DNA of 64,000 nt from positions 3,744,001 to 3,808,000 of the forward strand of contig CBDBGH010000003.1 of the NCBI GenBank assembly GCA_965205265.1, in the 5' to 3' direction. The position numbers and the translations under genes were made by a program. Position 1 is the first letter of the stretch, and the number at the start of each line of letters is the position of its first letter. The notes under the pieces were generated by a model. The model was not told the DNA's origin. It ran no database searches and saw nothing but the letters and a program-made list of their open reading frames with translations. Below, in pieces: positions 29,024 through 60,964 of this stretch. Source of the stretch: Alphaproteobacteria bacterium. GTDB lineage: Bacteria; Pseudomonadota; Alphaproteobacteria; Bin95.

Positions 29024-29085
29024 GGCGTATCGGGCCTCCGCCCGGGCAGCGTATCGTTAGGGGATTATATACATGCTTGCGCAAA

Positions 29086-29853: not shown

Positions 29854-30081
29854 CGGGGATGCCGCCAGATAAGCAGTTCGTGCGACTTCTTCACATGCGA
29901 CCCGCCGTTGCGCTCGCGCCGGTTCTCGCCGATGCGCGTATCGCCCTGCCCGAAGGTGTATTGCCATTCCGGCGTCTCGATATTGCAGTCGGAATACCAG
30001 TCGCGGATCGTCGGGCAGTCGTTGTAGGACAGGATGAATCCGGCCCGGTGGCGCAAGAGCAAATCGCGCAACGCCTCATGC
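29850..30081 (-). pseudogene. 3' fragment of split Dam-like (D12 class) N6-adenine methyltransferase
   Basis: HEALRDLL..FILSYND..IRDWY..ELLI; joins in frame with 58996-59783. Confidence 0.9.
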
Positions 30082-30382: not shown

Positions 30383-32125
30383 TCATCGCCGGGCATCGAC
30401 ATACTCGACAAGTGCGGATCGGCCGACGATAGCGACGATCCGCACATGCAGTTCGGTCCCTTCCGCGTCGGTCAATTGCAGTTTCTCGCCGGGGGTGAAG
30501 TGAACCGGCTGTTGCCTGCCTTCGTCAATCGCAATGTTCGACGCGTAGAGGTAGGTCCGGTCATGGGCGTCGCGTACGGGATTGAGCCTGCCCTTCAATC
30601 CCGGAACATGGCCGGTGGCCTCCGGAAAGATGACGCTCCCGCCTGCCGGCAAAGCCTCCAGATCGATCGCCAGCGCTCGTTCGCCCGGTATCCAGTCCCG
30701 CTCCGGATGTGCGGCGTATCCTGCTGCGGACGCGAACACGGTCATGGGCAGCCGGGTCGTGTGCAGATCGACTGCCGCTTCGCCTTGTTCGTCCGTGACG
30801 GCCTGCTTCCAGGTGTTGTTCGGAAATAGGAGAAGGAGACCGGCGCCCGGCAAGGGCCGGCCGCCAGACCGCACGGAGATGACGGCGCGAGCGGGGATCC
30901 GCTCCTGTACCGCCGCAGGAATGACAAGCAGCACCTCGGCATCGTCAACGACCGTGTACTCGGGGTACTTCCCGCACAATGCCCAGGTCTCGCGGCGGAT
31001 GATGGGCACGCCGTCGCCGCGGCGCTCCATGTAGTATCGCCTGTCTTCACCGCCCCGGGTTCCTCCGACAGGCATCCGCGCCAATACGGAGGTGAGGGCT
31101 TCATTGCGGGTCGACTGCCGCGACGCCATACTCTCCACCGTCAGGTTGTTCGGCAGGGAACCGGGCGACTGGATTTCCACCCGATCGTCGAACATCGAGA
31201 GACGGATCCTGCTTGCTCTCATGGAGTAGTCGCGATGGACGACGGCGTTGACCAGCGCCTCGAACAGGGCCTTTTCGCTGTACTGGGGAATATCCGAACG
31301 GGCCGGATCCTTTCGCGCCGCGACCCGCATGTTTCTGACAGCGAAGGCAACGGCGCCGGCGATCTGTTCGTTCAGCGGCCCGGCGATCTCCCGGGCATCG
31401 ACTTGACCCGATGCACGGTCTCCGCCGTCGTATCGGGTCGCCGTGATGCAGGCGTGCGGGAGCCATCGTTCCGGACTGGGCGTGCACAACAGCACGCCGG
31501 CGACCGTCGCGCGAAGCGCGCCTGCCTCGTCGTCTGCCAGAAGCGCCAGCTTCCCGAGCGCCGCCTCGGGCTCGGCCGCGCCCTCGGCGCTGAGCAACGG
31601 TTTCCAGAGCGCCTCGGTCAACGTCCGGAAACCGGTTTCCGGCACCGGCTGCTTGTCGAACCACAGGAAACGCGCCTGCGACCGCCGTTGCGTCAGGCGC
31701 AACCGCTCGTCGCTCCCCATGAGCCGCTTCGAGGCGCCCACGCGGACGTAGCATCCGCCGGGGCTCTCATGGACGGAATCGCTCTCCGGGACTTCGGCCA
31801 GCAGCACCAGCCTGCCGTCGGACAATTCCCGGTGATGCGTGCGGATGCGAACGGGCGGCTTGATCGTATCGGTGCTCACCTCCACGAGAAGGGAGTCCAG
31901 ACGGGCGATTTGCGCACGCGACATGCCGATGACGCTGCCGTCGTCGGCAACACCGGCAAGCACCACGCCCCCGGCCGCGTTGGCGAAGGCTGCGATTTCA
32001 TCGGCCCAGTCGCCGCGGGCCGGCCGTCTCGGACGATCCCCGGCGAATTCCACCTGCTTGAATTCCCAGCTGCTGTCTTCGCCCGCCCGCAGCTGGCTTT
32101 CGATGTCCCGGGCGCGGTAGTTCAT
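30383..32125 (-). CDS. AlbA_2 (Schlafen-like) domain + HATPase_c_4 domain protein with beta-rich C-terminal extension
   Basis: GEDSSWEFK, IAAFANAAGG, EALVNAVVHRDY, SPGSLP, RNEAL, MERRGDG. Confidence 0.82.
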   Translation of the reverse strand: MNYRARDIESQLRAGEDSSWEFKQVEFAGDRPRRPARGDWADEIAAFANAAGGVVLAGVADDGSVIGMSRAQIARLDSLLVEVSTDTIKPPVRIRTHHRELSDGRLVLLAEVPESDSVHESPGGCYVRVGASKRLMGSDERLRLTQRRSQARFLWFDKQPVPETGFRTLTEALWKPLLSAEGAAEPEAALGKLALLADDEAGALRATVAGVLLCTPSPERWLPHACITATRYDGGDRASGQVDAREIAGPLNEQIAGAVAFAVRNMRVAARKDPARSDIPQYSEKALFEALVNAVVHRDYSMRASRIRLSMFDDRVEIQSPGSLPNNLTVESMASRQSTRNEALTSVLARMPVGGTRGGEDRRYYMERRGDGVPIIRRETWALCGKYPEYTVVDDAEVLLVIPAAVQERIPARAVISVRSGGRPLPGAGLLLLFPNNTWKQAVTDEQGEAAVDLHTTRLPMTVFASAAGYAAHPERDWIPGERALAIDLEALPAGGSVIFPEATGHVPGLKGRLNPVRDAHDRTYLYASNIAIDEGRQQPVHFTPGEKLQLTDAEGTELHVRIVAIVGRSALVEYVDARR

Positions 32126-32643
32126 GCCCCGGCAATCCCGGCGGCCCTTGTAGCTCGCCGTGTGTGTCGTGGATCGCAGCTGTCCGGCGGTACCGTTTCG
32201 ACCATATGGCGATCGGGCCATTGTCGGATGTCGCGCCGCTCCGGACCCGTGTCGATGCCCTCGCGCAGGCGGGCGCTGGAATAGACGGGGAATGCCCCGG
32301 TTTCTCCAGACGGCTGCTCGCTACCCATCTTTCCGAATAACCGTGCTGGCACCGTCAGCCGACGAAAGCTGCCGTCGTCTTCCCGGTCCGTCATGTCCCC
32401 ATGTCCTCGGCCCTGGCACGTGACGCTGCCGGGTGCAGCGTCCCTGCCGGGCGCTGGCCGTTGCGCTGGCAATTTCCCGACCGCCCCGCACGCCGACGGC
32501 GACCGCTCGCCCGTCACTCCGGTCGGCCGCGACATGCGCCCCGCCGCCAGGAGGGAAAGGCTGGCCGTGAGCGGGGCGGCGGTCGGGTGCCCGGGAGAGG
32601 GCGTTCGTCCGTTTCCCCTCATCGGCACGAAGGAGACGGCACC

Positions 32644-32973
32644 ATGAGCGCAGCGATGGCATTCCCCCGCAACACGGCGGCAACCTTTCTCACCCATTTC
32701 TTCGGACCCGGCCTGGCCGAAGACGACCGCTATGTGGTCGAGCGCTACCGCACGCTCGCGAACGGCGACATTCGGCCCTGCCCGGACGCCGCGCCGAAGG
32801 GCGGCAGGCGCGGCAAGGCCCGGGCGATCACCGCGACCCTGAAGGCGGTCAGGGAGATGCGGCCCGAGCGCAACGAGATCATCATCTGCACCGGCCTCGG
32901 CAGCCGGGGCGGGGTCCAGTACTGGGGTGTCTACGCCATGGGGCTCGGTATCGACCGCCGCCAGAAGGGCTGA
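32644..32973 (+). CDS. Hypothetical protein (leading region)
   Basis: AAGGAG RBS upstream of ATG; 109 aa. Confidence 0.65.
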   Translation: MSAAMAFPRNTAATFLTHFFGPGLAEDDRYVVERYRTLANGDIRPCPDAAPKGGRRGKARAITATLKAVREMRPERNEIIICTGLGSRGGVQYWGVYAMGLGIDRRQKG

Positions 32974-33057
32974 CCGCCCCCTTCCCGGACGTCCGGCCGG
33001 CCCACCGCCGGCGGGGCGTCCGCCTTTCCCCTTGTTCCACGAACCGAGGAGGACGGC

Positions 33058-34308
33058 ATGGCCCATGCCGATCCGGAGATCCGCCGTGCGCGCGTCGCCA
33101 GACGCACCGCCGCGCGCACCGCCCGGGGCCTTTGTCCCCGCTGCGGAGACCGCCCGCCGGCGCCCGAGCGCCGCCTGTGCGCGCCCTGCAACGAGAAACA
33201 GAACGCGGCGGGCCGGGAACGCGACGCCCGCCTGCGGGCCGGCAGGAAACCCCGGCGCGACCCCGAACGGGCAAGGCGCCAGGGGCGCGAGCGCGACCGC
33301 AGGCTCTATGCCGAGAGGAAGGCGACCGGCATCTGCGTCAGGTGCGGCCGGGCCCCGGCACGCCCGGACCGCACGACCTGCGGGCCTTGCGCGGAGAAGC
33401 ATCGCGCGCGCGACCGCGAGCGCGACGCCCGGGCCAGGGCCCGGGGGATACCCTATGGCGGTCGCGACCCGGAAGCCCGGCGCCGGGCCGGACGGGAGCG
33501 CAGCCGCCGGCGCAGCGAGGCCCGCCAGGCCGCCGGGCTCTGTGTGCGCTGCGGCAACGTCCCGCCCGAGGACGGCCGGACCATGTGCGGGCCGTGCCGC
33601 GAGGACAGGCGGCAGGCCAAGAAAGAGCGCCATCACGGTCGCCGCGCCGCCCGCCTCTGCGTCCGGTGCGCGGCGCCCGCGCCGGACGGCAGGGCGTATT
33701 GCCCGTCCTGCGCCGGGATCCGGAGCAGGCGGCGGGACCGGAAGGCGAAGTGGGAAGCCGACCGCCGGCGCTATGCCGAACGGAAGGCCAGGGGCGATTG
33801 CACCAGTTGCGGCAAGCCGGCCCACGGCGCCGCCGAGTGCGCGGCCTGCCGCGACGCCGCCCGCGCCCGCTACGACACCCGCCGGGCCGCCGGGGTCTGC
33901 GTCAAGTGCCGGACCCCCACCTTCGATGGCGCCGTTTACTGCGCGCCCTGCGCCGTCGTCAGGGCCGAGCGCCGCGACCGCGAGGCCGAACACGCCGCCC
34001 GCCGCGACCGCTATGCCGATCGGAGGGCCGGGGGCCGCTGCGTCGCCTGCAACGCGCCCTCGCCGGGCGTGGCGCGTTGCGAGCCCTGTTCGCGCAGGCA
34101 CCGCGAGAGTTCGGGCGCGTTCCGCGGCATCCCGTTCTGGGACCCGCAGTATACGGTGATCGAGATCGCCACCGGGCGCGAGCACGGGCCGTTCGACAGC
34201 GAGGCCGATGTCGCGCTCTGCCTCGTCTTCGAGAAGCTCTTGCGCGACGAGGTCGAGGTGCTGTGCGACGCCAGCCCCATGAGTTCCTACACCGCGCCGG
34301 CCTGGTGA
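33058..34308 (+). CDS. Arg-rich protein with seven tandem CxxC...CxxC zinc-finger repeats
   Basis: GAGGAGG RBS; repeated GxCxxC-x9-11-CxxC units. Confidence 0.8.
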   Translation: MAHADPEIRRARVARRTAARTARGLCPRCGDRPPAPERRLCAPCNEKQNAAGRERDARLRAGRKPRRDPERARRQGRERDRRLYAERKATGICVRCGRAPARPDRTTCGPCAEKHRARDRERDARARARGIPYGGRDPEARRRAGRERSRRRSEARQAAGLCVRCGNVPPEDGRTMCGPCREDRRQAKKERHHGRRAARLCVRCAAPAPDGRAYCPSCAGIRSRRRDRKAKWEADRRRYAERKARGDCTSCGKPAHGAAECAACRDAARARYDTRRAAGVCVKCRTPTFDGAVYCAPCAVVRAERRDREAEHAARRDRYADRRAGGRCVACNAPSPGVARCEPCSRRHRESSGAFRGIPFWDPQYTVIEIATGREHGPFDSEADVALCLVFEKLLRDEVEVLCDASPMSSYTAPAW

Positions 34309-34486
34309 GCCGGCGCGCCTCCGGGTCGGGCGCGGCGGGTGTCTTCCCTGCCGCGCCGCCACCCTGTCTCCGCCGGGGCCGGCGTCCCGGAGTTGAAGGA
34401 GGGCTTTCGCGGGGGCGAGCGCCCGGGAGGGCCGGGGGAGTGGTTTCTCCGGCCGGATGTCCGGGCGCCGTCCAGGGGAGATGCCC

Positions 34487-34630
34487 ATGTCCGAGTTCTT
34501 CCACGACACCGACGCCGATGCGGCAACCGACACCGAACGCGCCGCGCCGGCCTGCGACGAACTGCTGGCCGAGGCCGGTCTCGACAGCCGGGCCATCCGC
34601 GAGGTCCTCGCCGGCCGCGACGCAGAGTGA
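34487..34630 (+). CDS. Small acidic 47-aa protein (not in ORF track)
   Basis: GGGGAG RBS; MSEFFHDTDADAATDTERAAPACDELLAEAGLDSRAIREVLAGRDAE. Confidence 0.5.
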   Translation: MSEFFHDTDADAATDTERAAPACDELLAEAGLDSRAIREVLAGRDAE

Positions 34631-34731
34631 AGGAAAGCGGGGAGAAGATGAGCGGCAGGGGGCCGGGGAGAGGGTTCTCCGGTCCCGGCCGCTCGACCAT
34701 CGTCAGCAACCAGACCTGAAGGAGCATCGCA

Positions 34732-35193
34732 ATGAGCTTCGGAATGAACCGCGTCGAACTGATCGGCCGCCTCGGCGCCGACGTCACCGTCAACCATCTC
34801 GCCTCCGGCGGCCGCGTGGCCAATCTCAGCATCGCCACCGACGAATCCTATCTCGACCGCCAGACCGGCGAGCGGGTCGACCGGACCGAGTGGCACCGGG
34901 TCGTGACCTTCCAGAACGGCCTCATCGACATGCTGGAGCGGCATGCGAAGAAGGGCCGGCTGGTCCACGCCGAGGGCAAGCTCCAGACCCGGCGGTGGAA
35001 GAAGGAGGGCGAGGACTCCGACCGCTTCTCCACCGAGATCCTGATCGTGCCCGGCCACAGGATCCAGTTCCTCGACAAGCCCGCCGGCGCGAACGGGAAC
35101 GGCGCCCAGGCCGGGACCGCCCAGCCGGCGGCGAACGGCGAGGCCATGCCGGCCGACGGCACCGGGGAGGCCGGGGACATCATCCCGTTCTGA
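34732..35193 (+). CDS. ssb: Single-stranded DNA-binding protein
   Basis: NRVELIGRLGAD, TEWHRV, EGKLQTRRW, C-terminal DIIPF. Confidence 0.95.
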   Translation: MSFGMNRVELIGRLGADVTVNHLASGGRVANLSIATDESYLDRQTGERVDRTEWHRVVTFQNGLIDMLERHAKKGRLVHAEGKLQTRRWKKEGEDSDRFSTEILIVPGHRIQFLDKPAGANGNGAQAGTAQPAANGEAMPADGTGEAGDIIPF

Positions 35194-35437
35194 GCCGGTC
35201 ACGCTTCCTATCTCCCAACTCGGGCGGCCGCTGCGCGGTCGCCCCTTTTTTGCTGCCGGTTTCGAGGCTTCTCCCGGTCGGACCATGCGCCCGTGCTTCG
35301 TGCGGAGCGTCCTCCCTCAGCCGGAGGAAATCCGTGAAGCGGCCCGCTCCCGGCCCCGGATCATGCCCCGGAAAGCCCTGCGGGAGCAAGAGGAAGGCAG
35401 GGGCCGGGCAAGCCGGCCCAGGGAGAGGAGGGAGCCG

Positions 35438-35794: not shown

Positions 35795-36018
35795 GCAACA
35801 TCGCCTTCCGCCGTATCGCCCCGGACGAATCCCGCATCTACTGCGACGGCGACCATGTCGGCGACATCTACGCGCTCGACGATCCGCTGCGCGAGGGCGC
35901 GCGGTATTTCGTGATCCATCTCGACGAGGATCCGCGCGGCCCCCACCGCGTCCATGACCGCAACCGCATCCGCGAGGCAACCGAGCAGCGGATCCTCTCG
36001 CATCCGTTCCGGAGATGA
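35791..36018 (+). CDS. Hypothetical 75-aa protein
   Basis: ATGA overlap with upstream gene. Confidence 0.6.
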   Translation: MSNIAFRRIAPDESRIYCDGDHVGDIYALDDPLREGARYFVIHLDEDPRGPHRVHDRNRIREATEQRILSHPFRR

Positions 36019-36455
36019 CCGGCCATGGCTGTCAAATTGCGCGCTCCGCTTGCAAGGCAGGCCGACAGGCCCGGGGATGCTCCCGCAGGCCGTGCCGGGC
36101 AGCAGCGCCCATCGGGTCCGTGCAAGGGGAGAGAATTTGCCTGTCTGCGTGCTGTCCCATTGTGCCACACGGGCTCACTGCACCAACCCCGCCTGCGGCG
36201 GGGTCCTCCACTCCGCTCACGCTCCGTTCCGGCCGGGACTCGGAATGAAACGGCGCTGAAGCGCCTAGGCCCGGCGGAATGCGCGACCGTGGCTCCGCGC
36301 TCGCTTCGCTCGCTTGTGCGCCCGCACCACCCGCGCATCCCGCCGGGCCATTCATTCCGGACCCGGTGCTTCCGCTGCGCGCGCGTGACCCAACAGGACA
36401 TCACTTCGGGGCACACCGCCCCGAGCGCTGCAACCCGATCGTCAAGGAGATCGTC

Positions 36456-37388
36456 ATGACCCTCATCGAAAACATCGACACCGTCGAGAGCGACGGACAG
36501 TCCGTCACCGCGACCGTCTGCGACAACGCCGCCCTCTACAGCGCAACACCCGAGCGCGACGAGTTCGACCCCCGCGTCATCTGGGACAAGGACGATGCGC
36601 TGACCGCCGTCGAGGAAGCCTTCCGCATCCTCGGCGAAGGCGTCTGCCCCGACGGCACACAGCTCGCCGACGAGCGCGAACACCTGCTCTGGGGCTTCGT
36701 CAACATGCTTCACGCCCAGACGCAGCGCATCGACCGCAGCGTCGATCGGCTCACCCCCGAACTCCGCGACCTCCAGCGCGACCAGGACGGAACCGAGATC
36801 AGGTCCCGCGAACTCGAACTCGTCACCCACCGCGCGCAGAACCTCGGAGACCGACGCGACGCCTTCGAGACCCTGCGCGATGCGGTGGCCGAACAGTACC
36901 GCGCCGAGACCGGCGACACCTGGCGGCCCCGGCGCGGCAGCCACGTCAGCCAGACCGGCAGGCTGACCAGCGCCGCCATCGACGCCCGCGACTTCATCCG
37001 CGCCCGCAAGGAGGCTGAGACCACGGCGCACCTGCCGCAAGGCACCCTCGTCGCCATCGCAGGCGGCAAGGACATCGCCAACCCCGACGCGGTGATCCGC
37101 ATGCTCGACAGGACCCGCGCTAAGCATGCGGATATGGTGCTCGTCCACGGCGGCGGACCCGGCGTCGAGAGGATCGCCGCGCGCTGGGCCGAACGCAACG
37201 GCGTCCACCAGATCGTCTGCAAGCCCGACTGGGACCGCCACGGACGCGCCGCGCCCTTCCGCCGCAACGACGAATTGCTCAACCTCCTGCCCAGGGGCGT
37301 CATCGCCTTCCCCGGCTCCGGCATCACAGAGAACCTCGTGGACAAGGCAAGGCAGCTCGGTATCCCCGTGATGACGGCCAGTGCATAG
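36456..37388 (+). CDS. DUF2493/YspA SLOG-family protein
   Basis: LVHGGGPG, PDWDRHGRAAPFRRND, AFPGSGIT. Confidence 0.85.
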   Translation: MTLIENIDTVESDGQSVTATVCDNAALYSATPERDEFDPRVIWDKDDALTAVEEAFRILGEGVCPDGTQLADEREHLLWGFVNMLHAQTQRIDRSVDRLTPELRDLQRDQDGTEIRSRELELVTHRAQNLGDRRDAFETLRDAVAEQYRAETGDTWRPRRGSHVSQTGRLTSAAIDARDFIRARKEAETTAHLPQGTLVAIAGGKDIANPDAVIRMLDRTRAKHADMVLVHGGGPGVERIAARWAERNGVHQIVCKPDWDRHGRAAPFRRNDELLNLLPRGVIAFPGSGITENLVDKARQLGIPVMTASA

Positions 37389-38329
37389 GCCGCACCGCAG
37401 CGCGGGCCGCACCGTCGCTCCGGCGGCGGCGCGGTCCGCTTCTTCTTGCGCACACACTTCGCGCGGCAACGCCATCCGCACGGGCGCTTCGCCCTGCCCC
37501 GGACCACGATCGGGGGCCCCGCTCGCGATCGACACCGTGATCGGCATCTCCGGCAGCGCCGTCGGTGCTGGCGACCGCCAGCCCGATCGCCGGCCAAGGC
37601 AGCAGCGCCTTGCGGCTGTCGCCGCCATCGCGCGCTGTCGCCTGCATCGCTCCCCGCACTCCCGCCGATCCTCGTGACGGCGCTCCCGTCGGAACCGCCG
37701 GCACCGCCCCCGGCGCCGCGCTCGACACTTCGTCCCTCCGTGGTGTCGCCACCGCCGCCCGCATCAGGCGCCGCGGAGGCTCCGAGCCGCCGTATTCGCC
37801 GGCGCCGATTCCCCCATCGCTCATACATCGCAAATCGTGCTCAGACGGGCCCGCGCCCGTCTCGGTCCACACACCGGAACGCAGGTCCCCTGCGGGTTGC
37901 GGCATGGGATGACAGGCGCTGCCTGGCACCGCCAGGAGTGGACAGGCGCCGCCAGAATCCTGCCGGCGCAACGCGGATCGAGCGCCACCGATTTGTGTTC
38001 GCCGGATCGTCGTACCGGGGCGCAGTCCAGCGCGCACCTGCCGCCAAAAGCAGTCAGGGTGGTTGCGATTTGCGCCAGGGCGCGTGACCGTGTGTTCGCC
38101 GTGCAGGCTCTCGAAACACGGAAACAACACGCCCCCGGGACCGGCATCCGGGTCGCGGCGGCGCCCTTCAGGGCGTTCGGCAGCGGTGGCCGGCGGGGCG
38201 GATGAAGAAGGGTACGGCGGCCCTGTGGGGCGGACCGGGCCCGGCCGCAAACGGGCCGCCGGCGTGCTGTTTCAGGGCCGGAATTTCATTGCGGCCGGCG
38301 GACAGTTCGATCTGGAAAGGGCAGAAGGG

Positions 38330-38716
38330 ATGGCGGGAAAGGAACGGAAAAATCCCGAGACCGGGAAGAAACCTGCGGAGAACCGGAGCAATGCGCGCCG
38401 GCAGCGCTCGACCCGCTTCTCCGATTCCGAGTGGGACCTGATCCGGCGGGCCGCCGCGCGGCACGGCATGTCCCCCGGCGAACTCGTGCGGTCGAGCGCG
38501 GTCGCCGCTGCCGAAGACCGCCTGGGTGAGCTTCCCCCGGCCACCTTGTCGAAGGGCCACGCCGCGCTCATCGAGGAGATCTACCGCCTCGTCTACGTGA
38601 TGGCGACGCTCGACCGGGAGGAGATGCTCGACGTCGAACGCGAGAAAGAGCTCGACGACCTCGTCGCCGCCGCCCGCAGGAGCATGACGGAGACGATGGG
38701 CGAGGGCCCGGCGTGA
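38330..38716 (+). CDS. RHH relaxosome accessory protein (MobC/MobA-like)
   Basis: RSTRFSDSEWDLIRRAAARHGMSPGELVR. Confidence 0.7.
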   Translation: MAGKERKNPETGKKPAENRSNARRQRSTRFSDSEWDLIRRAAARHGMSPGELVRSSAVAAAEDRLGELPPATLSKGHAALIEEIYRLVYVMATLDREEMLDVEREKELDDLVAAARRSMTETMGEGPA

Positions 38717-38851
38717 AGATCCGGGCGATGGATGTGCGCATTCGATCTGCCGCCCGAGACAAGGACATTGCGAGTCCGCCACGAGATTCCATCGATGTTC
38801 GGGAGCGGACCGCGTCCGGGGAAGTCCGAAAGGAGGTCCCGAAGGCTGCAA

Positions 38852-39332
38852 TCAGAGGCCGAGGTTCATGTCGATGCGTTTCTCTTGGACCGGCGTCTCG
38901 GGCTCCGGCGCCTTGTGCCTTGCCGGAACCGGCTCGATTTCCCGCGCCGGCTGGTGCGGCGCGGACGCCTCCGGGCTCGTCCGTTCCCTGTCGAGCGACG
39001 CCTTCCCGTCCTTTTGCTGCCCGCGTTCGCGCTCCGGGCGGAGGCTCTCGCCGATGCCTTCGAGGGCCGAGATGCGCTCGCCTGTGACCGCTTCCAGCCG
39101 CTCCTTCAGCGCCTGCACGTCGTCCGTGACCAGCTCCGCCCGGGCGCGCGCGGGATATCTCGACATAGAACGCCTTGGCCGTGGTCAGGTTGGGGTGGTT
39201 CGCTTCCATCGCCGCGATCACGTTGTCGACCGTACGGCCCTGAAAGGCATGCACGGTTGCGGCCCGTGCGTGATCCAGATGGCACAACTGCGGATCGCCC
39301 GGCGTCAGGGTGAGCCTGCGCCCCTCCTCCAG
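38852..39332 (-). pseudogene. Duplicated, frameshifted 3' end of the MobF relaxase gene
   Basis: Highly similar to 46416-46898; frameshift near 39150. Confidence 0.88.
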
Positions 39333-39342
39333 TAACGGGCGA

Positions 39343-39475
39343 TAAAACGAGAGGGGAGAGACAACGTCTCTCCCCATATTCGTCTGGCAGCCCTCCATGG
39401 AAAGCTGCCTTACTGTAGTTGCTACTGCAAGCAGTTGCACAGCTTTACGCCGCTGCTCTCCAAAACAGCAGCCAA
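39343..39475 (-). ncRNA. tracrRNA (type II-C)
   Basis: Anti-repeat AGCAACTACAG then TAAGGCAGC..GCTGCC hairpin, 10-bp terminator stem at 39353-39375 and T tract; layout as in Neisseria tracrRNA; 5' end uncertain. Confidence 0.85.
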
Positions 39476-39538
39476 TGCTTGCACCAGTCCCGCGCGCAAG
39501 TCAACATATTCTCGGAATCTTGCTGTCGGGGACTTTTC

Positions 39539-42500
39539 ATGAAGGTCGGATGGGGCATCGATGTCGGCGTCGGCAGTCTCGGCTTCGCAGTCATCGAACT
39601 GGATACGGCGAACCGCCCGGCACGGCTGATCGACGGCGTTGCGCTCTTTTATCCCGCGCCCACAGGCGGGGCGGGGCGGACCCGCCACAAATCCATGCGG
39701 ACGCAATACGGCCGCCGCGCCGACCGGGTAAAGGCGTTGCGCGCGTATCTCGTTCGCCTGCTCAACCTCGGTCCCGGCTTCTCCGACACCCCTGCGGGAC
39801 GCAGTACCGAGCGTGTCCCGCTGCGGGCGAAGGGCCTTGAGAGCCGCTTGAAAGCCGGCGATCTGGCCCGCGCCATCCTGCATATCGCGAAGAACCGGGG
39901 CCAGCGCCTGACACGGGGGCTCAGGGACGACTCCAAGGCCGACGCCAAGCAACAGGAAAAGAGCGCCAGGGAACGCCAGTCCATGGCGCACACGGCCAAC
40001 ACGACAAAAAACGAACTCGCGGCGCTCGGCGAAAGGCTGGGACTCGACGGCCCCGCCCACCCCTCGCAATTGCTAATGCGCAAGGCCGGCAAGAGGAGAA
40101 CGACCCGGCTGAAGAAAGACCGGGAAGGGATGCCGGTCTTCACTCGCCCCATGATGCAGGCGGAACTGGACGCGCTGCTGGAGACTCAACAGCCTTACCA
40201 CGAAGCGCTAACGGACATGGCTTGCGAGCAACTCAGGGAGATGGTGTTCGAGGAAGCGGAGCCGAAAGCGCCGTCCATCGGCAAATGCCGCTACGGCGTC
40301 CGCGGCGCCGATGGTGAAATCGAAACGCGGCTGTCGCGCGGCAGCGACTTGTTTCAACGCAAGCGCATCTACGAGGAAGTGAACAATCTGCGTCTGATAT
40401 CGTCGCGAACGGCGGCGGAACGGCCCTTGGATATGGCGCAGCGCGACCGTCTTGCCTTCCTGTTGCTCGATGGGCAGGACCTGACTGCGGCGGGAGTGCG
40501 CACAGCGCTGGGTTTGAGGCGCGGCGCGCTGGCCGACATGACCAGTCTGGATATCCGGCGCAAAGGCAGGAAAACGGCCGGCGAACTCAAGGGCCATCCG
40601 CTTGCCGCCGCCATGAGCAAGGCGGATGCGCTCGAACAGTGGCGGGGTTTCGATGAGGAGCGGCGTGAAAAGATCGCAAGTCTTGTACGCACGGAAGACG
40701 ACCGGGACATCTTGAACACCAAATTGAAAGAGCTCGACCTGCCGCCGGACGCCATTCAGGTGCTTTCGGATGCACGCCTGCCCGCCGCCCATTCCGCCGC
40801 CGGTGCGACGGCGACCCGGAAGCTGCTGGCTGAACTGGAAGCAGAGGTCATCCCGCACGACAAAGCAGAACAGCGGGCCGGACTCGAATCTCTCGATCAG
40901 GAACCGCCAAGTCTCGATCGGTTGCCCTACTACGGGGAAGTCCTGCAAGGATGGTGCATCGGGGGAAGCGGTGCGCCCGGAGACGCCGACGAAGCCCGTC
41001 TAGGCCGCATTTCGAATCCGGTCGTCCATGTGGCACTCAACCAGCTACGCAAGACCGCCAACGATTATCTGAAGCTCTACGGCAAGCCTGCGCAAATCTG
41101 CATCGAACTGGCCCGCGACCTGAACAGGAGCGCCGAGGAGCGTGACAACGCCGAAAAGGAGAATCTCAAAAACCGTAAGGAGAACGAAGCGCATATCGAG
41201 TCTCTGGGCGCCCATAAGCGCAAGCTCAAACCCGAAGACCTGAAACGAATGAGACTCCATAGAATGCAGGGCGGGGAATGCCTGTACACGGGAGAACCGA
41301 TCTGCATGGAGCACCTTTTCGACGGGTCGGTTGAGATCGACCATATACTGCCTTACGCCACGACCGGAGACGACGGCATCCCCAATCTGGCTTTAGTGTT
41401 CAAGGAAGCCAATCAATTCAAACGCAAGAGGCCTCCTTTCGAGGCATTCAGCGGTGGATACAAGGGCAAGGACTATGAGCATATCCTCAAGCGCGCGAAG
41501 CTCCGCGGCGGGAGCGTGTATTGGCGTTTCAAAGAGGATGCCATGAAGCGTTACGAGGACCGGGAAGAATTCCAACGCAGGTTCCTCAACGATACGCGCT
41601 ACATTGCAAGAATGGCGGCGCGTTATCTGTCTTGCGTATGCAAAGACCCGGATAACGGCGTCGTCAGCCTGAATGGTCGAATCACGTCGGACCTCCGCTA
41701 CTTGTGGGGCCTCCATACCGTAATCCGAGACATAATGGTGGAGGAAGGACGGCTTGATATCGGCGATATTCTGTCCCCCAGAGACGGTGAAACTCTCGAG
41801 GAAAGGCAAGCGCGCCTCAAACGCGCCGACAAGGTACGCTGGGACCATCGGCACCACTTGCTGGACGCGGTCGTTGCCGCCTGCACAACCCGAAGCGATG
41901 TGCAGCGCCTCCAGACGCTGGCGGCGCGTGATACAGGCAACGAGAGCGCCAGAGAAATTCTGGCCCAAATTCGTTACACCGAACCGAACTTTGAGAATAT
42001 TGGCATATGTTGGCAGGATGGGTTTCGGAGGACAGTAAAGGCTTTTCTGGAAGGCTGGAGACCCGCCGAAGCGACGGACAAACCGCCCGCCACCGCCGTG
42101 GTCGTGAAGGCCGATCACGATCCGCGAGGCCAACTGCACGAAGCGACGAACTACGGCCTTATATGCGAAGTCCCGGGCGAGCGGGACAAATATGTCGCCC
42201 GGGACCATGTCTCGATTTCGGAATTGGAGGTGAAACAAATCGAGAAGCTCGGTGTGCCCGAAACCGCAATCCGGGCTGTCGAGCGAGCGAAGGAGCAGGG
42301 CGCGCGCTTCTGGTGGGGCGGACACGACCCCGTGTCTTCCCTGCGCAATAATCTGGCCCCTGATTTGGAGAAGATGCGTGCCAGGCTTCTCGAATTGATG
42401 CAGGAAGCGCCACCCGAGGCTCTGGAAAACGCGCGCACGGCCAGAGGCCAGCAAAAGGCGCGGGCGGAGTGGGCGAAAAAGCGGTACATCGTGGAAACAA

Positions 42501-42991
42501 CCGGACGCCGCCGTTTTACGCGGGTCCAGATTGTCTCCCTGCGCGTTCTCAAAGGCCCGTTGGACCCCGGCAAAAGGCCCAGACAGGCCAACCGAACGAG
42601 AGGGAACGACCGTCTGGTCTATTTCGTGAATGGCGAAGGGGACCGGGATATCGAAGTTGTTTCGACCCTGGACGCCAATACGCCGGGGTTCCAGGAACGA
42701 TGGCGCCGCGAGGGCGGGCGGCGGCTGTTCGTTCTGCGGAGGAACGATCTCGTGGAAATGGCGGTCGACCCGAAGGACCTAGCCTCGCCGCGCCGCCTCT
42801 ACCGCACGGTCTCGTTCTCCGGCTTGGATAATCCCGATCTCGAATTTGTGCCCGTCGAGGAGGCGCGCTCCGGCAGACCGCCGAAGCATGTAAGGATCAG
42901 CAACAAGAAGGGGTTCTCGGAACGCGCGCCGGCAATGGTGCTGTGCGACCCTACGGGCCGCGTGCGCTGGCGAGGCCCCCGCCTCAACTGA
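39539..42991 (+). CDS. cas9: Type II-C Cas9 (1150 aa)
   Basis: RuvC-I GIDVG, Arg-rich bridge helix, NPVV, IELARD, HNH EIDHILP..N, LNDTRY, HRHHLLDA. Confidence 0.96.
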   Translation: MKVGWGIDVGVGSLGFAVIELDTANRPARLIDGVALFYPAPTGGAGRTRHKSMRTQYGRRADRVKALRAYLVRLLNLGPGFSDTPAGRSTERVPLRAKGLESRLKAGDLARAILHIAKNRGQRLTRGLRDDSKADAKQQEKSARERQSMAHTANTTKNELAALGERLGLDGPAHPSQLLMRKAGKRRTTRLKKDREGMPVFTRPMMQAELDALLETQQPYHEALTDMACEQLREMVFEEAEPKAPSIGKCRYGVRGADGEIETRLSRGSDLFQRKRIYEEVNNLRLISSRTAAERPLDMAQRDRLAFLLLDGQDLTAAGVRTALGLRRGALADMTSLDIRRKGRKTAGELKGHPLAAAMSKADALEQWRGFDEERREKIASLVRTEDDRDILNTKLKELDLPPDAIQVLSDARLPAAHSAAGATATRKLLAELEAEVIPHDKAEQRAGLESLDQEPPSLDRLPYYGEVLQGWCIGGSGAPGDADEARLGRISNPVVHVALNQLRKTANDYLKLYGKPAQICIELARDLNRSAEERDNAEKENLKNRKENEAHIESLGAHKRKLKPEDLKRMRLHRMQGGECLYTGEPICMEHLFDGSVEIDHILPYATTGDDGIPNLALVFKEANQFKRKRPPFEAFSGGYKGKDYEHILKRAKLRGGSVYWRFKEDAMKRYEDREEFQRRFLNDTRYIARMAARYLSCVCKDPDNGVVSLNGRITSDLRYLWGLHTVIRDIMVEEGRLDIGDILSPRDGETLEERQARLKRADKVRWDHRHHLLDAVVAACTTRSDVQRLQTLAARDTGNESAREILAQIRYTEPNFENIGICWQDGFRRTVKAFLEGWRPAEATDKPPATAVVVKADHDPRGQLHEATNYGLICEVPGERDKYVARDHVSISELEVKQIEKLGVPETAIRAVERAKEQGARFWWGGHDPVSSLRNNLAPDLEKMRARLLELMQEAPPEALENARTARGQQKARAEWAKKRYIVETTGRRRFTRVQIVSLRVLKGPLDPGKRPRQANRTRGNDRLVYFVNGEGDRDIEVVSTLDANTPGFQERWRREGGRRLFVLRRNDLVEMAVDPKDLASPRRLYRTVSFSGLDNPDLEFVPVEEARSGRPPKHVRISNKKGFSERAPAMVLCDPTGRVRWRGPRLN

Positions 42992-42993
42992 CG

Positions 42994-43920
42994 ATGTGGC
43001 GCGTCGTCGATATCGCCGACGAAAACCGCGTTCTCTCGCTGTCGAGGGGTAGCCTGAAGGTTTCCGGCGACGGCGGCGAATTGGGCCGGGTGCCGCTTTC
43101 GGACATCCAGTGCGTTCTCGTGCACGGCCATAGCGCGATGCTGTCCCTGTCGTTGGGCGCGGCGTTGGCCGAAGCGGGGATTCCCCTTGTACTGTGCGGC
43201 CGCAACCATGCGCCTGTGGCCTTGTCTTTGCCTGTGTCTGGCAATTTCGAGCAGGCAGCGCGGCTGACCGCTCAGGCATCCCTGTCCCTGCCCAGGCGCA
43301 AGCAGCTTTGGCGGCGGCTGGTCATGGCGAAAATCGCCTCGCAGGCGCGGGCGCTGGAGATTGTGGGACAGCCCGACCACATGCGCCTTGCAAGGCTTGC
43401 GAGGTCGGTGCGATCCGGCGACCCGGACAATGTGGAAGCCCGCGCCGCGCGTTTCTACTGGCGGCGGTTGATGGGTAGCGATTTCCGGCGCGACCCCAAT
43501 GGCAACGGTCTCAACGCCCATTTGAACTACGGCTATGCGGTCGTTCGCTCCGCCATGGCCCGCGCCGTGGTCGGAGCGGGCCTGGCGCCCGGGCTGGGTT
43601 TGCATCACCGCAGCCGCCTGAACGCCTTCCAACTGGTGGACGACCTGATGGAGCCGTTCCGACCTCTCGTGGACCACGTAGTCTGGCGCAACCGGGAACA
43701 CTGGACCGGGGAAGTGGACACGGCGGCCAAACGGGAATTGGCGCTGGTCGTCAACGGCGCAATGGCGACGTCGGCGGGAGCGCACACCGTCTCGCGCGTC
43801 ATGTCGATGCTGGCCCACTCCCTGGCGGAGCTTTGCACGGGAGAGGCGGCGGATTTGTCATGGCCGCTCGACTGGGGTCTTGTGGCGCAAACCGAACTCG
43901 ACTTTGCCGACCGCCCGTGA
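42994..43920 (+). CDS. cas1: Type II Cas1
   Basis: MWRVVDI, NVEARAARFYW, LNYGYAVVR, DDLMEPFRP. Confidence 0.95.
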   Translation: MWRVVDIADENRVLSLSRGSLKVSGDGGELGRVPLSDIQCVLVHGHSAMLSLSLGAALAEAGIPLVLCGRNHAPVALSLPVSGNFEQAARLTAQASLSLPRRKQLWRRLVMAKIASQARALEIVGQPDHMRLARLARSVRSGDPDNVEARAARFYWRRLMGSDFRRDPNGNGLNAHLNYGYAVVRSAMARAVVGAGLAPGLGLHHRSRLNAFQLVDDLMEPFRPLVDHVVWRNREHWTGEVDTAAKRELALVVNGAMATSAGAHTVSRVMSMLAHSLAELCTGEAADLSWPLDWGLVAQTELDFADRP

Positions 43921-43966
43921 GCGCAGGCTGGTCCGACAGCGCTTTCGCGGCCGGGCCGGCCTTTGG

Positions 43967-44299
43967 ATGGAGGCCGTTTCCGGTTACAGGGCGATGTGGC
44001 TTGTGGTGTGTTTCGACCTGCCCGTAGGAACGTCGAAAGAGCGGCGCGACGCGACCCGCTTTCGTCACCGCCTGCTGAACGAAGGATTCGCGATGAAGCA
44101 ATGGTCGGTCTATACTCGCTACTTCCTCACACGGGCCCAAGCGGACGCCGCCGCCGTCCGGGTCGGCGGCTTCGTGCCGCCCATGGGGAAGGTCTCGATC
44201 ATTTTCATCACCGACAAGCAATTCGGCATGGTGCGCAATTTCGAGGGCCGGGCTCCCGCCGAAACGGAGAAAAAGCCCGACCAATTGGCCCTGTTCTGA
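43967..44299 (+). CDS. cas2: Cas2
   Basis: SGYRAMWLVVCFDLPV, FRHRLL.EGF..QWSVY, ITDKQF, QLALF. Confidence 0.95.
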   Translation: MEAVSGYRAMWLVVCFDLPVGTSKERRDATRFRHRLLNEGFAMKQWSVYTRYFLTRAQADAAAVRVGGFVPPMGKVSIIFITDKQFGMVRNFEGRAPAETEKKPDQLALF

Positions 44300-44332
44300 T
44301 AGCCCCGGCTGCGAATCCTGTGCCAAGAATCG

Positions 44333-44363
44333 GCCCAACCCGTTGATTTTCAACGGGTTGGGC
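44333..44363. terminator. 13-bp hairpin between cas2 and the array
   Basis: gcccaacccgttg-atttt-caacgggttgggc. Confidence 0.6.
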
Positions 44364-44370
44364 ACGGAGT

Positions 44371-46310
44371 ACTGTAGCCAATGCTGTTTCGGAGAGCAAC
44401 TACAGCCTCACACAGGCTTCCCAGTGCAGTTAGTCCACTGTAGCCAATGCTGTTTCGGAGAGCAACTACAGCAGGGACATTGCCAAGCTGTTCGGCATAG
44501 CGACTGTAGCCAATGCTGTTTCGGAGAGCAACTACAGCCACGGCAATGCGCGTATCCGTGGACGTGCGACTGTAGCCAATGCTGTTTCGGAGAGCAACTA
44601 CAGCTCGTAGTAGTAGCAGTTCATTGACTTTCCTACTGTAGCCAATGCTGTTTCGGAGAGCAACTACAGCGGGGGTGCATTGGGGTCTACCCTCATCTTT
44701 ACTGTAGCCAATGCTGTTTCGGAGAGCAACTACAGCCCCTGGAGAAGGCGACCGGGTCATCTTCACACTGTAGCCAATGCTGTTTCGGAGAGCAACTACA
44801 GCAAAGCCTACGTAAGCGCCGTTGATGACGGCACTGTAGCCAATGCTGTTTCGGAGAGCAACTACAGCTACGGCAATGCGTTTGTCCACGACGATGCGAC
44901 TGTAGCCAATGCTGTTTCGGAGAGCAACTACAGCTAACGCACGCGTCTACGGATGTGCGCGGGTACTGTAGCCAATGCTGTTTCGGAGAGCAACTACAGC
45001 GCGATGAGCCGGGACCTTGCCGCGACCATCACTGTAGCCAATGCTGTTTCGGAGAGCAACTACAGCGCGTACCATGTGTCAGGATATGCCGGTGCGACTG
45101 TAGCCAATGCTGTTTCGGAGAGCAACTACAGCGCTGTTCCTTCCTTCGAGCAGATTGTCGACACTGTAGCCAATGCTGTTTCGGAGAGCAACTACAGCGA
45201 ACTCACTACCAAGCCCGCGGCGTCGATGACTGTAGCCAATGCTGTTTCGGAGAGCAACTACAGCATATACCGGACCGCCACGCTGGTCGAGATAACTGTA
45301 GCCAATGCTGTTTCGGAGAGCAACTACAGCATAGCGGCGTACGAGGTTGCGGGAGGCCTGACTGTAGCCAATGCTGTTTCGGAGAGCAACTACAGCTACG
45401 GTACGGCGCACGTCTACGGCCAGGCGACTGTAGCCAATGCTGTTTCGGAGAGCAACTACAGCCGTCAAAGGTCCCGCGCCCGGAAGCTTCGGACTGTAGC
45501 CAATGCTGTTTCGGAGAGCAACTACAGCCTACCGCCGACATAGGCATCGCCACCGGGAACTGTAGCCAATGCTGTTTCGGAGAGCAACTACAGCACGCCT
45601 ACAGTCGGCGCACCCTCGGCCGGCACTGTAGCCAATGCTGTTTCGGAGAGCAACTACAGCCCGAATGCCGCCGATGTCCGCCGGTGGTGGACTGTAGCCA
45701 ATGCTGTTTCGGAGAGCAACTCCGCCGATGTCCGCCGGTGGTGTAGCCAATGCTGTTTCGGAGGCAACTACAGCATACGAACCACTCGCCGCTCTCGCCG
45801 CAATCGGAGAGCAACTACAGCCATCCTGGCGGATGCACCGCCAACGAGCAATGCGCAACTACAGCTCAGCCATTGCACTGTAGCCAATGCTGTTTCGGAG
45901 AGCAACTACAGCGCGTTGCGCCTCTCGGCCAAGCTCGCCGAGACTGTAGCCAATGCTGTTTCGGAGAGCAACTACAGCATCGGGACTGTCGCGCTATGCG
46001 CTGGAACTGCACTGTAGCCAATGCTGTTTCGGAGAGCAACTACAGCGAGATCCGCTCAAGGGCGCGCTTGTCATGAACTGTAGCCAATGCTGTTTCGGAG
46101 AGCAACTACAGCCTAACCGTATGTCTCAATGCCGCATTCGGTACTGTAGCCAATGCTGTTTCGGAGAGCAACTACAGCATAAGCGCACCCGACGATGTCG
46201 AACGTCTCACTGTAGCCAATGCTGTTTCGGAGAGCAACTACAGCGCGGGCTCTGGTGCGGCGCGGCTTCGCGCGACTGTAGCCAATGCTGTTTCGGAGAG
46301 CAACTACAGC
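44371..46310 (-). CRISPR. CRISPR array: 27 intact 36-bp repeats plus 4 damaged; spacers mostly 30 bp
   Basis: Repeat ACTGTAGCCAATGCTGTTTCGGAGAGCAACTACAGC on + strand, 66-bp period; minus orientation inferred from tracr pairing and similarity to the Neisseria II-C repeat. Confidence 0.98.
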
Positions 46311-46415
46311 TATTACGGCTCGGCGAGCGCGTGCTGGTACTGTTCCAGGAAATGACCTTCATCGTGCTTCGCGCCTCGGGACAAGCGACCGCAAAGGAGC
46401 TGCCGTCCGCACACA

Positions 46416-59783: not shown

Positions 59784-59784
59784 G

Positions 59785-60750: not shown

Positions 60751-60964
60751 AGTGGATCCTCCCTGTAAGGATGAATATAGGCGCTCCGGTTTGCGCCGTC
60801 AAGTATATAATCCCCTATCGTTAGACATGGTTGTCGAACAAGTAGCGTAACCGGCCGGAATGTCCAACCTGTCATTCGTCGCCGGCGACAGGACGGGCGG
60901 GGCTTTTCCGACTACTATCTGCAATGGAAATCCGCGGACCCGTTTTTTCAGGCCTGAAAGTCCA

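What the first reader, a model, noticed from the sequence alone, without database searches (positions are those of the whole stretch)
39343..39480. tracrRNA with a split anti-repeat and a structured insert; possible natural sgRNA conformer
On the minus strand the anti-repeat is in two pieces. TGCTGTTTTGGAGAGCAGC (39470-39452) pairs with repeat nt 7-25, with both differences G-U compatible. AGCAACTACAG (39423-39413) pairs with nt 2-12. The 28 nt between them can form two hairpins (GCAGCGGC-GTAAA-GCTGTGC and ACTG-CTTG-CAGT), giving a multi-way junction in the crRNA:tracr duplex. Alternatively GCTGTGCAACTG mimics the repeat 5' end and folds back on the proximal anti-repeat, like S. pyogenes tracr-L. 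I found no target for such a guide in the window.
Basis: partly seen in the sequence, partly recalled or inferred. Interest (0 to 1): 0.72.

Follow-up and report, generated by a model that had tools for sequence, protein, structure and literature searches.

The report
tracrRNA gene split by an insertion
This is the helper RNA (tracrRNA) gene of a CRISPR-Cas9 system, and a 34-base insertion found only in this lineage cuts its repeat-pairing segment in two; the system still looks active, so this may be a natural case of Cas9 tolerating a branched guide RNA, but the proposed self-guiding fold has no support.

Summary
39343-39472 (minus strand) is the tracrRNA gene of a type II-C CRISPR-Cas9 locus: cas9 39539-42991, cas1, cas2, array 44371-46310. 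Its anti-repeat lies in two pieces at the stated coordinates.

The four closest Cas9 lineages I could fetch (59-70% identity) all have one contiguous anti-repeat, so the window carries a lineage-specific 34-nt insertion. Promoter spacing, the distal piece (19/19), the nexus hairpin and the terminator are conserved.

The insertion is real DNA: contigs of runs from three studies are identical to the window. It sits in the only tracrRNA of the genome and has no other copy or recognisable source.

Co-folding with the repeat predicts a four-way junction 6-12 bp from the spacer end. Pairing stays favourable (-16 kcal/mol, against -19 to -30 in relatives).

The insert's hairpins and the sgRNA-like fold-back are no more stable than shuffled sequence. 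They are not conserved, and the would-be guide has no target.

Two array versions behind identical cas genes carry 4 and 7 private new spacers and no perfect self-match, so the system was active recently.

Most likely this is a tolerated, possibly attenuating, insertion. The tracr-L-like reading is unsupported.

The parts
39343..39472 (-). tracrRNA gene (about 130 nt; the 5' end is inferred, the 3' end is the T-run of the terminator)
   Evidence: Homologous to the cas9-upstream RNA genes of 4 related lineages. It folds far better than shuffles over 39343-39480 (z -5.4, 0 of 200). No Rfam family matches it.
39452..39470 (-). distal anti-repeat piece; pairs with repeat nt 7-25 (9-25 in the MFE co-fold)
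   Evidence: It is 19/19 identical to the relatives' anti-repeat.
39418..39451 (-). 34-nt lineage-specific insertion: 28 nt at 39424-39451 plus a 6-nt AGCAAC that nearly repeats the AGCAGC before the insert. The boundary is ambiguous by 6 nt.
   Evidence: Absent from L006, L011, L012/L013 and L001. No other copy in the genome. No significant similarity to its surroundings or to a repeat-spacer unit.
39412..39423 (-). proximal anti-repeat piece AGCAACTACAGT; pairs with repeat nt 1-12
39386..39409 (-). nexus-like hairpin (10 bp) after the AA linker
   Evidence: the pairs are kept through changes on both sides in relatives.
39353..39375 (-). intrinsic terminator stem-loop, followed by a T-run to 39343
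39475..39504 (-). inferred tracrRNA promoter: TTGACT (39504-39499), an 18-nt spacer, AAGCAT (39480-39475)
   Evidence: TTGAC and the spacing to the anti-repeat are invariant in 5 of 5 aligned loci. The site is below the threshold of the consensus scan (0 promoter-like sites).
39539..42991 (+). cas9, 1150 aa, intact
   Evidence: RuvC_III, HNH_4, Cas9_a. The closest solved structures are Neisseria-type Cas9 entries such as 6jdq, E 1e-41 to 1e-45.
42943..43920 (+). cas1
   Evidence: Cas_Cas1, E 4.6e-29.
43967..44299 (+). cas2
   Evidence: CRISPR_Cas2, E 3.1e-14. The frame given was the wrong one.
44371..46310 (-). CRISPR array: 36-nt repeats and 30-nt spacers, with the crRNA sense on the minus strand. 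Repeats are degenerate at about 45700-45870.

Best explanation
This is a genuine type II-C tracrRNA gene that suffered a 34-nt insertion inside its anti-repeat, in this lineage only.

The transcript probably starts at about 39472-39466 from a conserved promoter, so it contains both pieces. On meeting a crRNA, the proximal piece pairs with repeat nt 1-8 (up to 12). The distal piece pairs with the rest, up to nt 25. The inserted bases are extruded as a branch of two small hairpins, giving a four-way junction whose position can slide between 6 and 12 bp from the spacer.

[quoted passage not shown] The branch would therefore sit at or just beyond the edge of the protein-bound part and be tolerated, perhaps with some loss of efficiency.

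Shown: the insertion, its uniqueness, the conservation of everything around it, the predicted pairing, and recent activity of the locus. Inferred: the transcript ends, tolerance by Cas9, and function.
For: 1. 4 of 4 related lineages have a contiguous anti-repeat followed by the same AAG-nexus-terminator layout. This covers all 5 loci that hold upstream DNA: L006 (same genus, Cas9 70% identical), L011 (another family, 70%), L012/L013 (63%) and L001 (59%). The nexus and terminator covary: 5 of 28 pairs changed on both sides.

2. TTGAC and its distance to the anti-repeat are invariant in 5 of 5 loci.

3. The co-fold with the repeat is -92.9 kcal/mol. The net gain is -16.3, against -30.4 (G009), -18.7 (G049) and -19.6 (L012, measured with a degenerate repeat). 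The three junction registers lie within 2.7 kcal/mol of each other.

4. There is no uninterrupted tracrRNA elsewhere in the genome. The 33-nt core with up to 7 substitutions hits only CRISPR repeats. The 16-nt 3' core with up to 2 substitutions hits only the two insert-bearing copies.

5. cas9, cas1 and cas2 are intact.

6. Two versions of the locus have flanks with 0 differences over 13,411 and 14,510 nt, yet their arrays carry 4 and 7 private spacers at the cas2-proximal end. Acquisition therefore went on after the insertion.

7. Of 54 distinct spacers, 0 match the own genome perfectly. The one near-match is 29/30, with its mismatch 2 nt from the PAM side. This is what selection by working interference would leave.

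8. Papers (passages seen). In NmeCas9 about half of the duplex is clamped by REC1/WED and the other half is reported dispensable (PMC10516666). Truncating the duplex from 24 to 14 nt minimally perturbs three II-C orthologues (bioRxiv 10.64898/2026.08.17.745178). Shortened Nme sgRNAs work (PMC8560862). A 79-nt upper-stem extension is dispensable in S. pyogenes tracr-L (10.1101/2020.05.21.102756).
Against: - There are no RNA data: no listed run holding the stretch is on record as RNA. Transcript ends and abundance are unknown.
- The proximal stem is at most 12 bp, shorter than the 14 nt tested.
- The hybridisation gain is the smallest of the four loci measured.
- Spacer acquisition does not prove a working tracrRNA. 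In Neisseria II-C, loss of tracrRNA raises acquisition (PMC12477760).
- The age of the insertion is unknown, so intact cas genes say little.
- The closest solved Cas9 is distant: only about 240 residues of HNH/RuvC align. Transferring the contact map is therefore an analogy.
- The two locus versions may be one locus in two subpopulations of the sample rather than two copies in one genome.
Confidence: 0.55

Rival explanations
1. Attenuating insertion. The split anti-repeat and the self-folding of the free tracrRNA lower the loading of Cas9 with the dual RNA. More Cas9 then stays RNA-free. As in Neisseria type II-C systems, this raises spacer acquisition while interference is weakened but not lost.
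For: - The hybridisation gain falls to -16.3 kcal/mol, against -30.4 in the same-genus relative.
- In the free tracrRNA both pieces are paired: the MFE is -65.2, against -46.4 when both are forced open.
- Two array versions with 4 and 7 private new spacers lie between flanks without a single difference over 27.9 kb.
- One new spacer is nearly self-derived.
- PMC12477760 (abstract and passages): loss of tracrRNA or crRNA gives 'super-adaptation' through apoCas9, conserved in several II-C orthologues.
Against: - There is no measure of acquisition rate or of RNA levels.
- G049 and L012 have similar hybridisation gains without an insert.
- Array heterogeneity at the acquisition end is common in active systems (my general knowledge).
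- The 5' self-hairpin of the anti-repeat also exists in relatives (columns 38-55).
Confidence: 0.25
2. Dead tracrRNA. The insertion abolishes Cas9 loading, and the locus is a recently inactivated system that still integrates spacers.
For: - The proximal stem is at most 12 bp.
- No second tracrRNA exists.
- Acquisition without tracrRNA is possible in II-C systems.
- The window's array has a decayed stretch at about 45700-45870.
Against: - 0 of 54 spacers match the own genome perfectly, and the single near-match carries a seed mismatch. Without interference, self-derived spacers should persist (inference).
- All cas genes are intact.
- The predicted duplex is still strongly favourable.
Confidence: 0.1
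3. Natural single guide (tracr-L-like). GCUGU...CUUG...ACAGU folds back on the proximal anti-repeat, and the 5' 29 nt act as a guide that directs Cas9 to a DNA site for regulation.
For: - The MFE of the free tracrRNA contains this fold-back. Its 5-bp lower stem is identical to the one the crRNA would form.
- tracr-L is a precedent in type II-A.
Against: - The fold-back is worth only 3.7 kcal/mol, and 151 of 200 shuffles fold at least as well.
- It is absent from 4 of 4 related lineages.
- The would-be guide is itself sequestered in a 10-bp hairpin.
- The 3' 13-mer of the guide occurs only in the two tracrRNA genes (2 hits, both self). The 12-mer has 3 other hits against 0.63 expected, and none lies near cas9.
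- The self-site is followed by a sequence that shares its first 5 nt with the repeat, which is the context that normally protects arrays (read; inference).
- PMC12477760 states that tracr-L homologues were not detected in Neisseria small-RNA data.
Confidence: 0.05

Closest known systems
tracrRNAs of the four related Cas9 loci (L006/G009, L011/G049, L012-L013, L001)
   Same: They share the position and orientation (divergent from cas9), the TTGAC promoter spacing, the 19-nt distal anti-repeat, the TACAGT-AAG junction, the nexus hairpin and the terminator.
   Different: All four have a contiguous anti-repeat of about 24-28 nt. The window has 34 extra nt inside it. Its proximal piece reads AGCAAC (Watson-Crick with the repeat) where the others read AGCAGC (one G-U).
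Canonical type II-C tracrRNA (Neisseria meningitidis, Campylobacter jejuni)
   Same: - A minimal cas9-cas1-cas2 operon.
- A 36-nt repeat, with crRNAs read towards cas2.
- New spacers added at the last repeat. This matches PMC12080349 and the remark on array orientation in PMC3737331.
- The same RNA layout: anti-repeat, then nexus or stem-loop 1, then terminator.
   Different: - The Cas9 is distant.
- The anti-repeat is interrupted.
- Repeat-internal promoters were not tested here.
S. pyogenes tracr-L natural single guide (Workman et al., 10.1101/2020.05.21.102756)
   Same: Part of the tracrRNA itself can pair with the anti-repeat lower stem, and a large extra element sits at the upper-stem position.
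   Different: - tracr-L is a long isoform from its own promoter, with the mimic in a 5' extension.
- It has an 11-nt match plus PAM in the cas9 promoter and is widespread in II-A.
- Here the mimic lies inside an insertion, no target exists, there is no conservation and the stability is at chance level.
Engineered sgRNA scaffolds with truncated or extended repeat:anti-repeat stems
   Same: The distal duplex is a permissive site. Truncations to 14 nt and shortened Nme sgRNAs work, and the distal half has few protein contacts.
   Different: [quoted passage not shown] Here a natural dual RNA would carry a branch in the middle of the duplex, only 6-12 bp from the spacer.

Membership tests
tracrRNA (type II CRISPR-Cas) | Anti-repeat complementary to the CRISPR repeat | tested here: met
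   Two pieces pair with repeat nt 1-12 and 7-25. Chance expectation is 0.00 for each.
tracrRNA (type II CRISPR-Cas) | Encoded next to cas9-cas1-cas2 and an array | tested here: met
   It lies about 66 nt upstream of cas9 and divergent from it. Cas9, Cas1 and Cas2 domains are, and the array.
tracrRNA (type II CRISPR-Cas) | Nexus/stem-loop and intrinsic terminator downstream of the anti-repeat, conserved among relatives | tested here: met
   Of 28 consensus pairs, 5 are kept through changes on both sides.
tracrRNA (type II CRISPR-Cas) | Single contiguous anti-repeat | tested here: not met
   It is interrupted by 34 nt, whereas 4 of 4 related lineages are contiguous. This is what makes it a variant. 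It does not remove it from the family, because homology on both sides of the insert is plain.
tracrRNA (type II CRISPR-Cas) | Expressed, bound by Cas9 and needed for interference | not testable with these tools
   No listed run holding the stretch is on record as RNA. All laid runs are contigs.
tracrRNA (type II CRISPR-Cas) | Match to a curated Rfam tracrRNA model | tested here: not met
   cmscan of 36000-48000 at E up to 10 gave 6 weak matches, none at 39343-39472. As far as I recall, the Rfam tracrRNA model is built on other subtypes, so this says little.
tracr-L-like natural single guide | Intramolecular crRNA mimic that forms the lower stem with the anti-repeat | tested here: inconclusive
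   It is present in the MFE of the free RNA. It is worth only 3.7 kcal/mol, and 151 of 200 shuffles fold at least as well.
tracr-L-like natural single guide | Guide segment matching a PAM-flanked site in the cas promoter | tested here: not met
   There is no match of 13 nt or more outside the tracrRNA genes. The 11- and 12-mers fall elsewhere in the genome, none near cas9. The PAM is unknown.
tracr-L-like natural single guide | Conserved in related loci | tested here: not met
   0 of 4 related lineages have the insert.
tracr-L-like natural single guide | Separate long isoform from an upstream promoter | not testable with these tools
   There are no RNA data. Only one conserved promoter-like element was seen.

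The most novel reading that the evidence does not exclude
The insertion makes this tracrRNA a crRNA-gated switch. Alone, it closes on itself: a 5' hairpin covers the distal piece and an sgRNA-like fold-back covers the proximal piece. With a crRNA, it opens into a four-way junction that Cas9 still accepts. By lowering dual-RNA loading it would keep part of the Cas9 RNA-free and so raise spacer acquisition, as shown for Neisseria apoCas9. That would explain the very fresh, divergent acquisition ends of the two array versions. It would be the first natural branched Cas9 guide, and a cis-encoded tuning of the balance between adaptation and interference.
Probability: 0.15. Interest if true: 0.7.

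Novelty: new variant of a known kind. Interest (0 to 1): 0.4.

Why it matters
If Cas9 of this locus works with the native tracrRNA, nature has shown that a type II-C repeat:anti-repeat duplex tolerates a 34-nt branch only 6-12 bp from the spacer. That is closer than the sites used for engineered scaffold insertions, so it is a direct lead for guide-RNA design.

If the insertion weakens loading, it is a natural hypomorph. With it one could test, outside Neisseria, the recent claim that RNA-free Cas9 boosts spacer acquisition.

If it is simply neutral or inactivating, it is a one-lineage accident of modest interest. The case also shows that tracrRNA finders which require one contiguous anti-repeat could mis-score such loci (inference).

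Tried and rejected
**Assembly artefact.** Rejected. Contigs of four runs from three studies lie on the region with 0 differences.

**Second, intact tracrRNA elsewhere.** Not found in the genome.

**Origin of the insert**
- No other copy in the genome; only 11-15-nt matches at E 1.5 or weaker.
- No significant local similarity to the flanks, the rest of the tracrRNA or a repeat-spacer unit on either strand. Of 500 shuffles, 99 (28-nt query) and 126 (34-nt query) score at least as high.
- MAFFT placed the relatives' anti-repeat against the 3' half of the insert plus the proximal piece. I reject that alignment: by my own count on the aligned letters it gives about 17 of 27 identities, whereas the distal piece is 19/19.
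- A tandem-duplication origin and an off-target spacer integration were considered. Neither fits the lengths (a 6-nt near-duplicate rather than 36 nt), and neither is supported.

**PAM and protospacers**
- The 3.3-kb array of the second copy found nothing in 'plasmids' or 'phages'.
- It found no protospacer in the 37 genomes of the family: the only matches were the two own arrays, the G009 array and one 40-nt match to array-flanking sequence in G016.
- The PAM stays unknown apart from one flank.

**More relatives**
- Genome contigs gave 1 close and 3 distant loci.
- The order search gave 5 of 37 genomes with a match, including the window's own genome; among the others only G009 is close.
- The class sample gave 2 of 401, including the own genome.
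- Metagenome contigs gave 3 loci; L014 lacks the upstream end.
- In 'plasmids' the 25 records listed of 43 matching are 28.5% identical, and all 43 are under 60%.
- Viral contigs gave none.
- The order of G049 gave 1 of 7, which is G049 itself.
- The six distant loci L002-L004 and L007-L009 (27-35% identity) were not examined for tracrRNAs.

**RNA evidence.** No RNA holder is listed, and only contigs could be laid.

**Promoter scan.** 0 sites at the tool's threshold. The promoter is inferred from conservation.

**Print search.** The six phrases 'split', 'interrupted', 'bipartite' and 'discontinuous anti-repeat', 'anti-repeat insertion' and 'insertion in the anti-repeat' occur in 0 papers of the library. 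A broader search listed nothing on this by title or abstract. Dooley et al. 2021 and Faure et al. 2019 on tracrRNA diversity are recalled only and were not seen. Supplements are closed and may hold tracrRNA catalogues that bear on novelty.

Full report
**What is there**

The finding lies in a complete type II-C CRISPR-Cas locus.
- cas9 (39539-42991, + strand, 1150 aa) has RuvC_III, HNH_4 and Cas9 alpha-helical lobe domains.
- It is followed by cas1 and cas2 (43967-44299). The frame I first gave for cas2 was wrong.
- The array has 36-nt repeats and 30-nt spacers at 44371-46310.
- The closest solved Cas9 structures are Neisseria-type entries. They are distant: E 1e-41 to 1e-45, with about 240 aligned residues.
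- On the minus strand, divergent from cas9, lies an RNA gene that ends in a 10-bp terminator and a T-run. It folds far better than shuffles (z -5.4, 0 of 200).
- No Rfam family matches it.

**The observation**

- In the window, the 19-mer (up to 2 mismatches) and the 11-mer (exact) of the repeat occur only in the array and, once each, in this gene on the opposite strand. Chance expectation is 0.00 for each.
- The tracrRNA is on the minus strand, so the crRNA sense of the repeat is also the minus strand.
- Contigs of four public runs from three studies lie on the region without a single difference. The insertion is therefore real DNA. One of those runs may be the source of the window.

**Why the anti-repeat is split**

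I fetched every related Cas9 locus the collections gave. Four independent lineages have Cas9 59-70% identical together with upstream DNA:
- G009, of the same genus;
- G049, of another family;
- two near-identical metagenome contigs, L012 and L013;
- a MAG, L001.

In all four, the region upstream of cas9 carries the same RNA gene with one contiguous anti-repeat...GCTGTTTTGGAGAGCAGCTACAGTAAG..., followed by a nexus hairpin and a terminator. The window reads ...GGAGAGCAGC, then 34 nt, then TACAGTAAG....

Conservation around the insert:
- The distal piece is 19/19 identical to the relatives.
- The proximal piece differs at one base: AGCAAC instead of AGCAGC. That turns a G-U into an A-U opposite the repeat's GTTGCT, a sequence G009 and G049 share.
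- The nexus and terminator covary, with 5 of 28 pairs changed on both sides.
- An invariant TTGAC lies at a fixed distance from the start of the anti-repeat in 5 of 5 loci. I infer that the primary transcript starts just before the distal piece. The consensus scan itself reports no promoter.

The split is therefore a lineage-specific insertion into an ancestrally contiguous anti-repeat.

**Where the insert came from**

This is unknown. It has no other copy in the 5.7-Mb genome. It has no significant similarity to its surroundings or to a repeat-spacer unit (99 and 126 of 500 shuffles score as high). The last 6 nt nearly repeat the 6 nt before the insert, so the event can be read as 28 nt plus a 6-nt near-duplication.

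**What it does to the RNA**

- Co-folding the repeat with the tracrRNA gives a four-way junction. Repeat nt 1-8 pair with the proximal piece and nt 9-25 with the distal piece. Two small hairpins form from the insert.
- Forcing 12 bp on the proximal side or 19 bp on the distal side costs only 1.0 and 2.7 kcal/mol. The junction can therefore slide between 6 and 12 bp from the spacer.
- The net gain on hybridisation is -16.3 kcal/mol, against -30.4 (G009), -18.7 (G049) and -19.6 (L012, with a degenerate repeat).
- The free tracrRNA closes both pieces. A 10-bp 5' hairpin covers the distal piece; a 7-bp version of it exists in the relatives too. A fold-back of the insert covers the proximal piece.

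**Is the insert 'structured', and is there a natural sgRNA?**

The evidence says no, or at least not shown.
- The 28-nt and 34-nt inserts and the 33-nt fold-back fold no better than dinucleotide shuffles. Of 200 shuffles, 148, 108 and 151 do at least as well.
- The fold-back adds only 3.7 kcal/mol.
- No relative has the insert, so covariation cannot be tested.
- For a tracr-L-like role (features taken from passages of 10.1101/2020.05.21.102756), the 5' 29 nt would be the guide. Its 3' 13-mer occurs only in the two tracrRNA genes themselves.
- The 12-mer has 3 other sites in the genome against 0.63 expected, none near cas9.

**Is the system alive?**

- Window 30960-60820 is present a second time, inverted, at the very end of contig C3.
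- The 13,411 nt before the array and the 14,510 nt after it are identical in the two versions. The arrays differ.
- The window has 4 private spacers at the cas2-proximal end and the other version has 7. Both share the core and the distal end, and the window has lost many inner spacers.
- Whether these are two copies in one genome or two subpopulations, spacers were acquired after the common ancestor, and that ancestor already had the insert.
- The polarity, with new spacers at the last repeat in the crRNA direction, agrees with what is described for type II-C (PMC12080349; PMC3737331).
- Acquisition alone does not prove a working tracrRNA. In Neisseria, loss of tracrRNA or crRNA increases acquisition through RNA-free Cas9 (PMC12477760, abstract and passages).
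- More telling is the spacer content. Of 54 distinct spacers none matches the own genome perfectly. The single near-match is the window's 4th spacer (44605-44634), 29/30 to C3:3410504-3410533, with its mismatch 2 nt from the PAM end. That is the pattern expected if interference still removes self-targeting spacers (inference).

**Likely mechanism**

- Shortened Nme sgRNAs work (PMC8560862, passage).
- Three II-C orthologues tolerate truncation of the duplex from 24 to 14 nt (bioRxiv 10.64898/2026.08.17.745178, passages).
- The branch here starts 6-12 bp from the spacer, at or slightly inside that limit.

My best reading (0.55) is a tolerated branch with a functional dual RNA. The main rival (0.25) is a hypomorph that shifts the balance towards RNA-free Cas9 and acquisition. 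A dead tracrRNA gets 0.10 and a natural single guide 0.05. No tool here can separate the first two.

**Novelty**

The six phrases for a split or interrupted anti-repeat occur in none of the searched papers. A broader search listed nothing on this by title or abstract. Large tracrRNA surveys that I only recall, and closed supplements, may contain similar cases. I rate this a new variant of a known kind. It is a real and unusual feature, confined to one lineage, with no evidence yet that the inserted bases do anything.

Noticed in passing
window 30960-60820 and G000:C3:5432428-5463552: About 30 kb, including tracrRNA, cas genes and array, is present twice. The second copy is inverted and cut off by the end of the contig. 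The flanks have 0 differences (13,411 + 14,510 nt), but the arrays differ: 27 against 48 spacer intervals. This may be a true inverted duplication or two subpopulations joined by the assembler (the genome's contamination figure is 7.28%).
   Followed up: partly
window 44605-44634 (4th spacer from cas2) and G000:C3:3410504-3410533: A recently acquired spacer matches the own chromosome 29/30. The single mismatch is 2 nt from the PAM-proximal end, and the 3' flank of the protospacer is CGCTTCAATG. The site lies in a stretch without long ORFs (L018 5091-5806), about 14 kb from a region (C3:3424-3430 kb) that resembles the flanks of the CRISPR locus.
   Followed up: partly
window 38859-39332 and 46423-46898; 46416-49367 (-): The CRISPR-cas cassette (tracrRNA to array) is bracketed by direct repeats of about 475 bp, 88.7% identical. 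They are the 3' end of a TrwC-type relaxase gene, which is intact at 46416-49367 and a fragment with UvrD_C_2 at 38568-39440. Related segments (87-93% identical) occur at several other places of the chromosome. The locus therefore looks like cargo of a conjugative element family, perhaps aimed at sister elements.
   Followed up: partly
window 45700-45870: The window's array has broken repeats and fused spacer remnants where the second copy has intact units (its spacers 23-29). This is either real decay or deletion, or a poor consensus of heterogeneous reads.
   Followed up: no
window 44371-44640 versus copy 2: Private spacers sit at the cas2-proximal end, which is the 3' end in the crRNA direction, and the shared oldest spacers at the far end. 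This is the type II-C polarity described in PMC12080349.
   Followed up: yes
window 8-2387, 29059-30081 and 58996-60820: Multi-copy elements. The first has at least four further 100% identical copies and many more at about 86% across the chromosome. The other two have two further copies each. They are probably insertion sequences.
   Followed up: no
window 30383-32221 (-): A 612-aa protein with Schlafen AlbA_2 and HATPase_c_4 domains lies at the edge of the duplicated segment. The large neighbouring ORFs (32122-35286, 35868-37628) have no Pfam match.
   Followed up: no
window 44336-44366: A perfect 12-bp inverted repeat (CCCAACCCGTTG ... [quoted passage not shown] It may be a terminator or insulator at the acquisition end of the array.
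   Followed up: no
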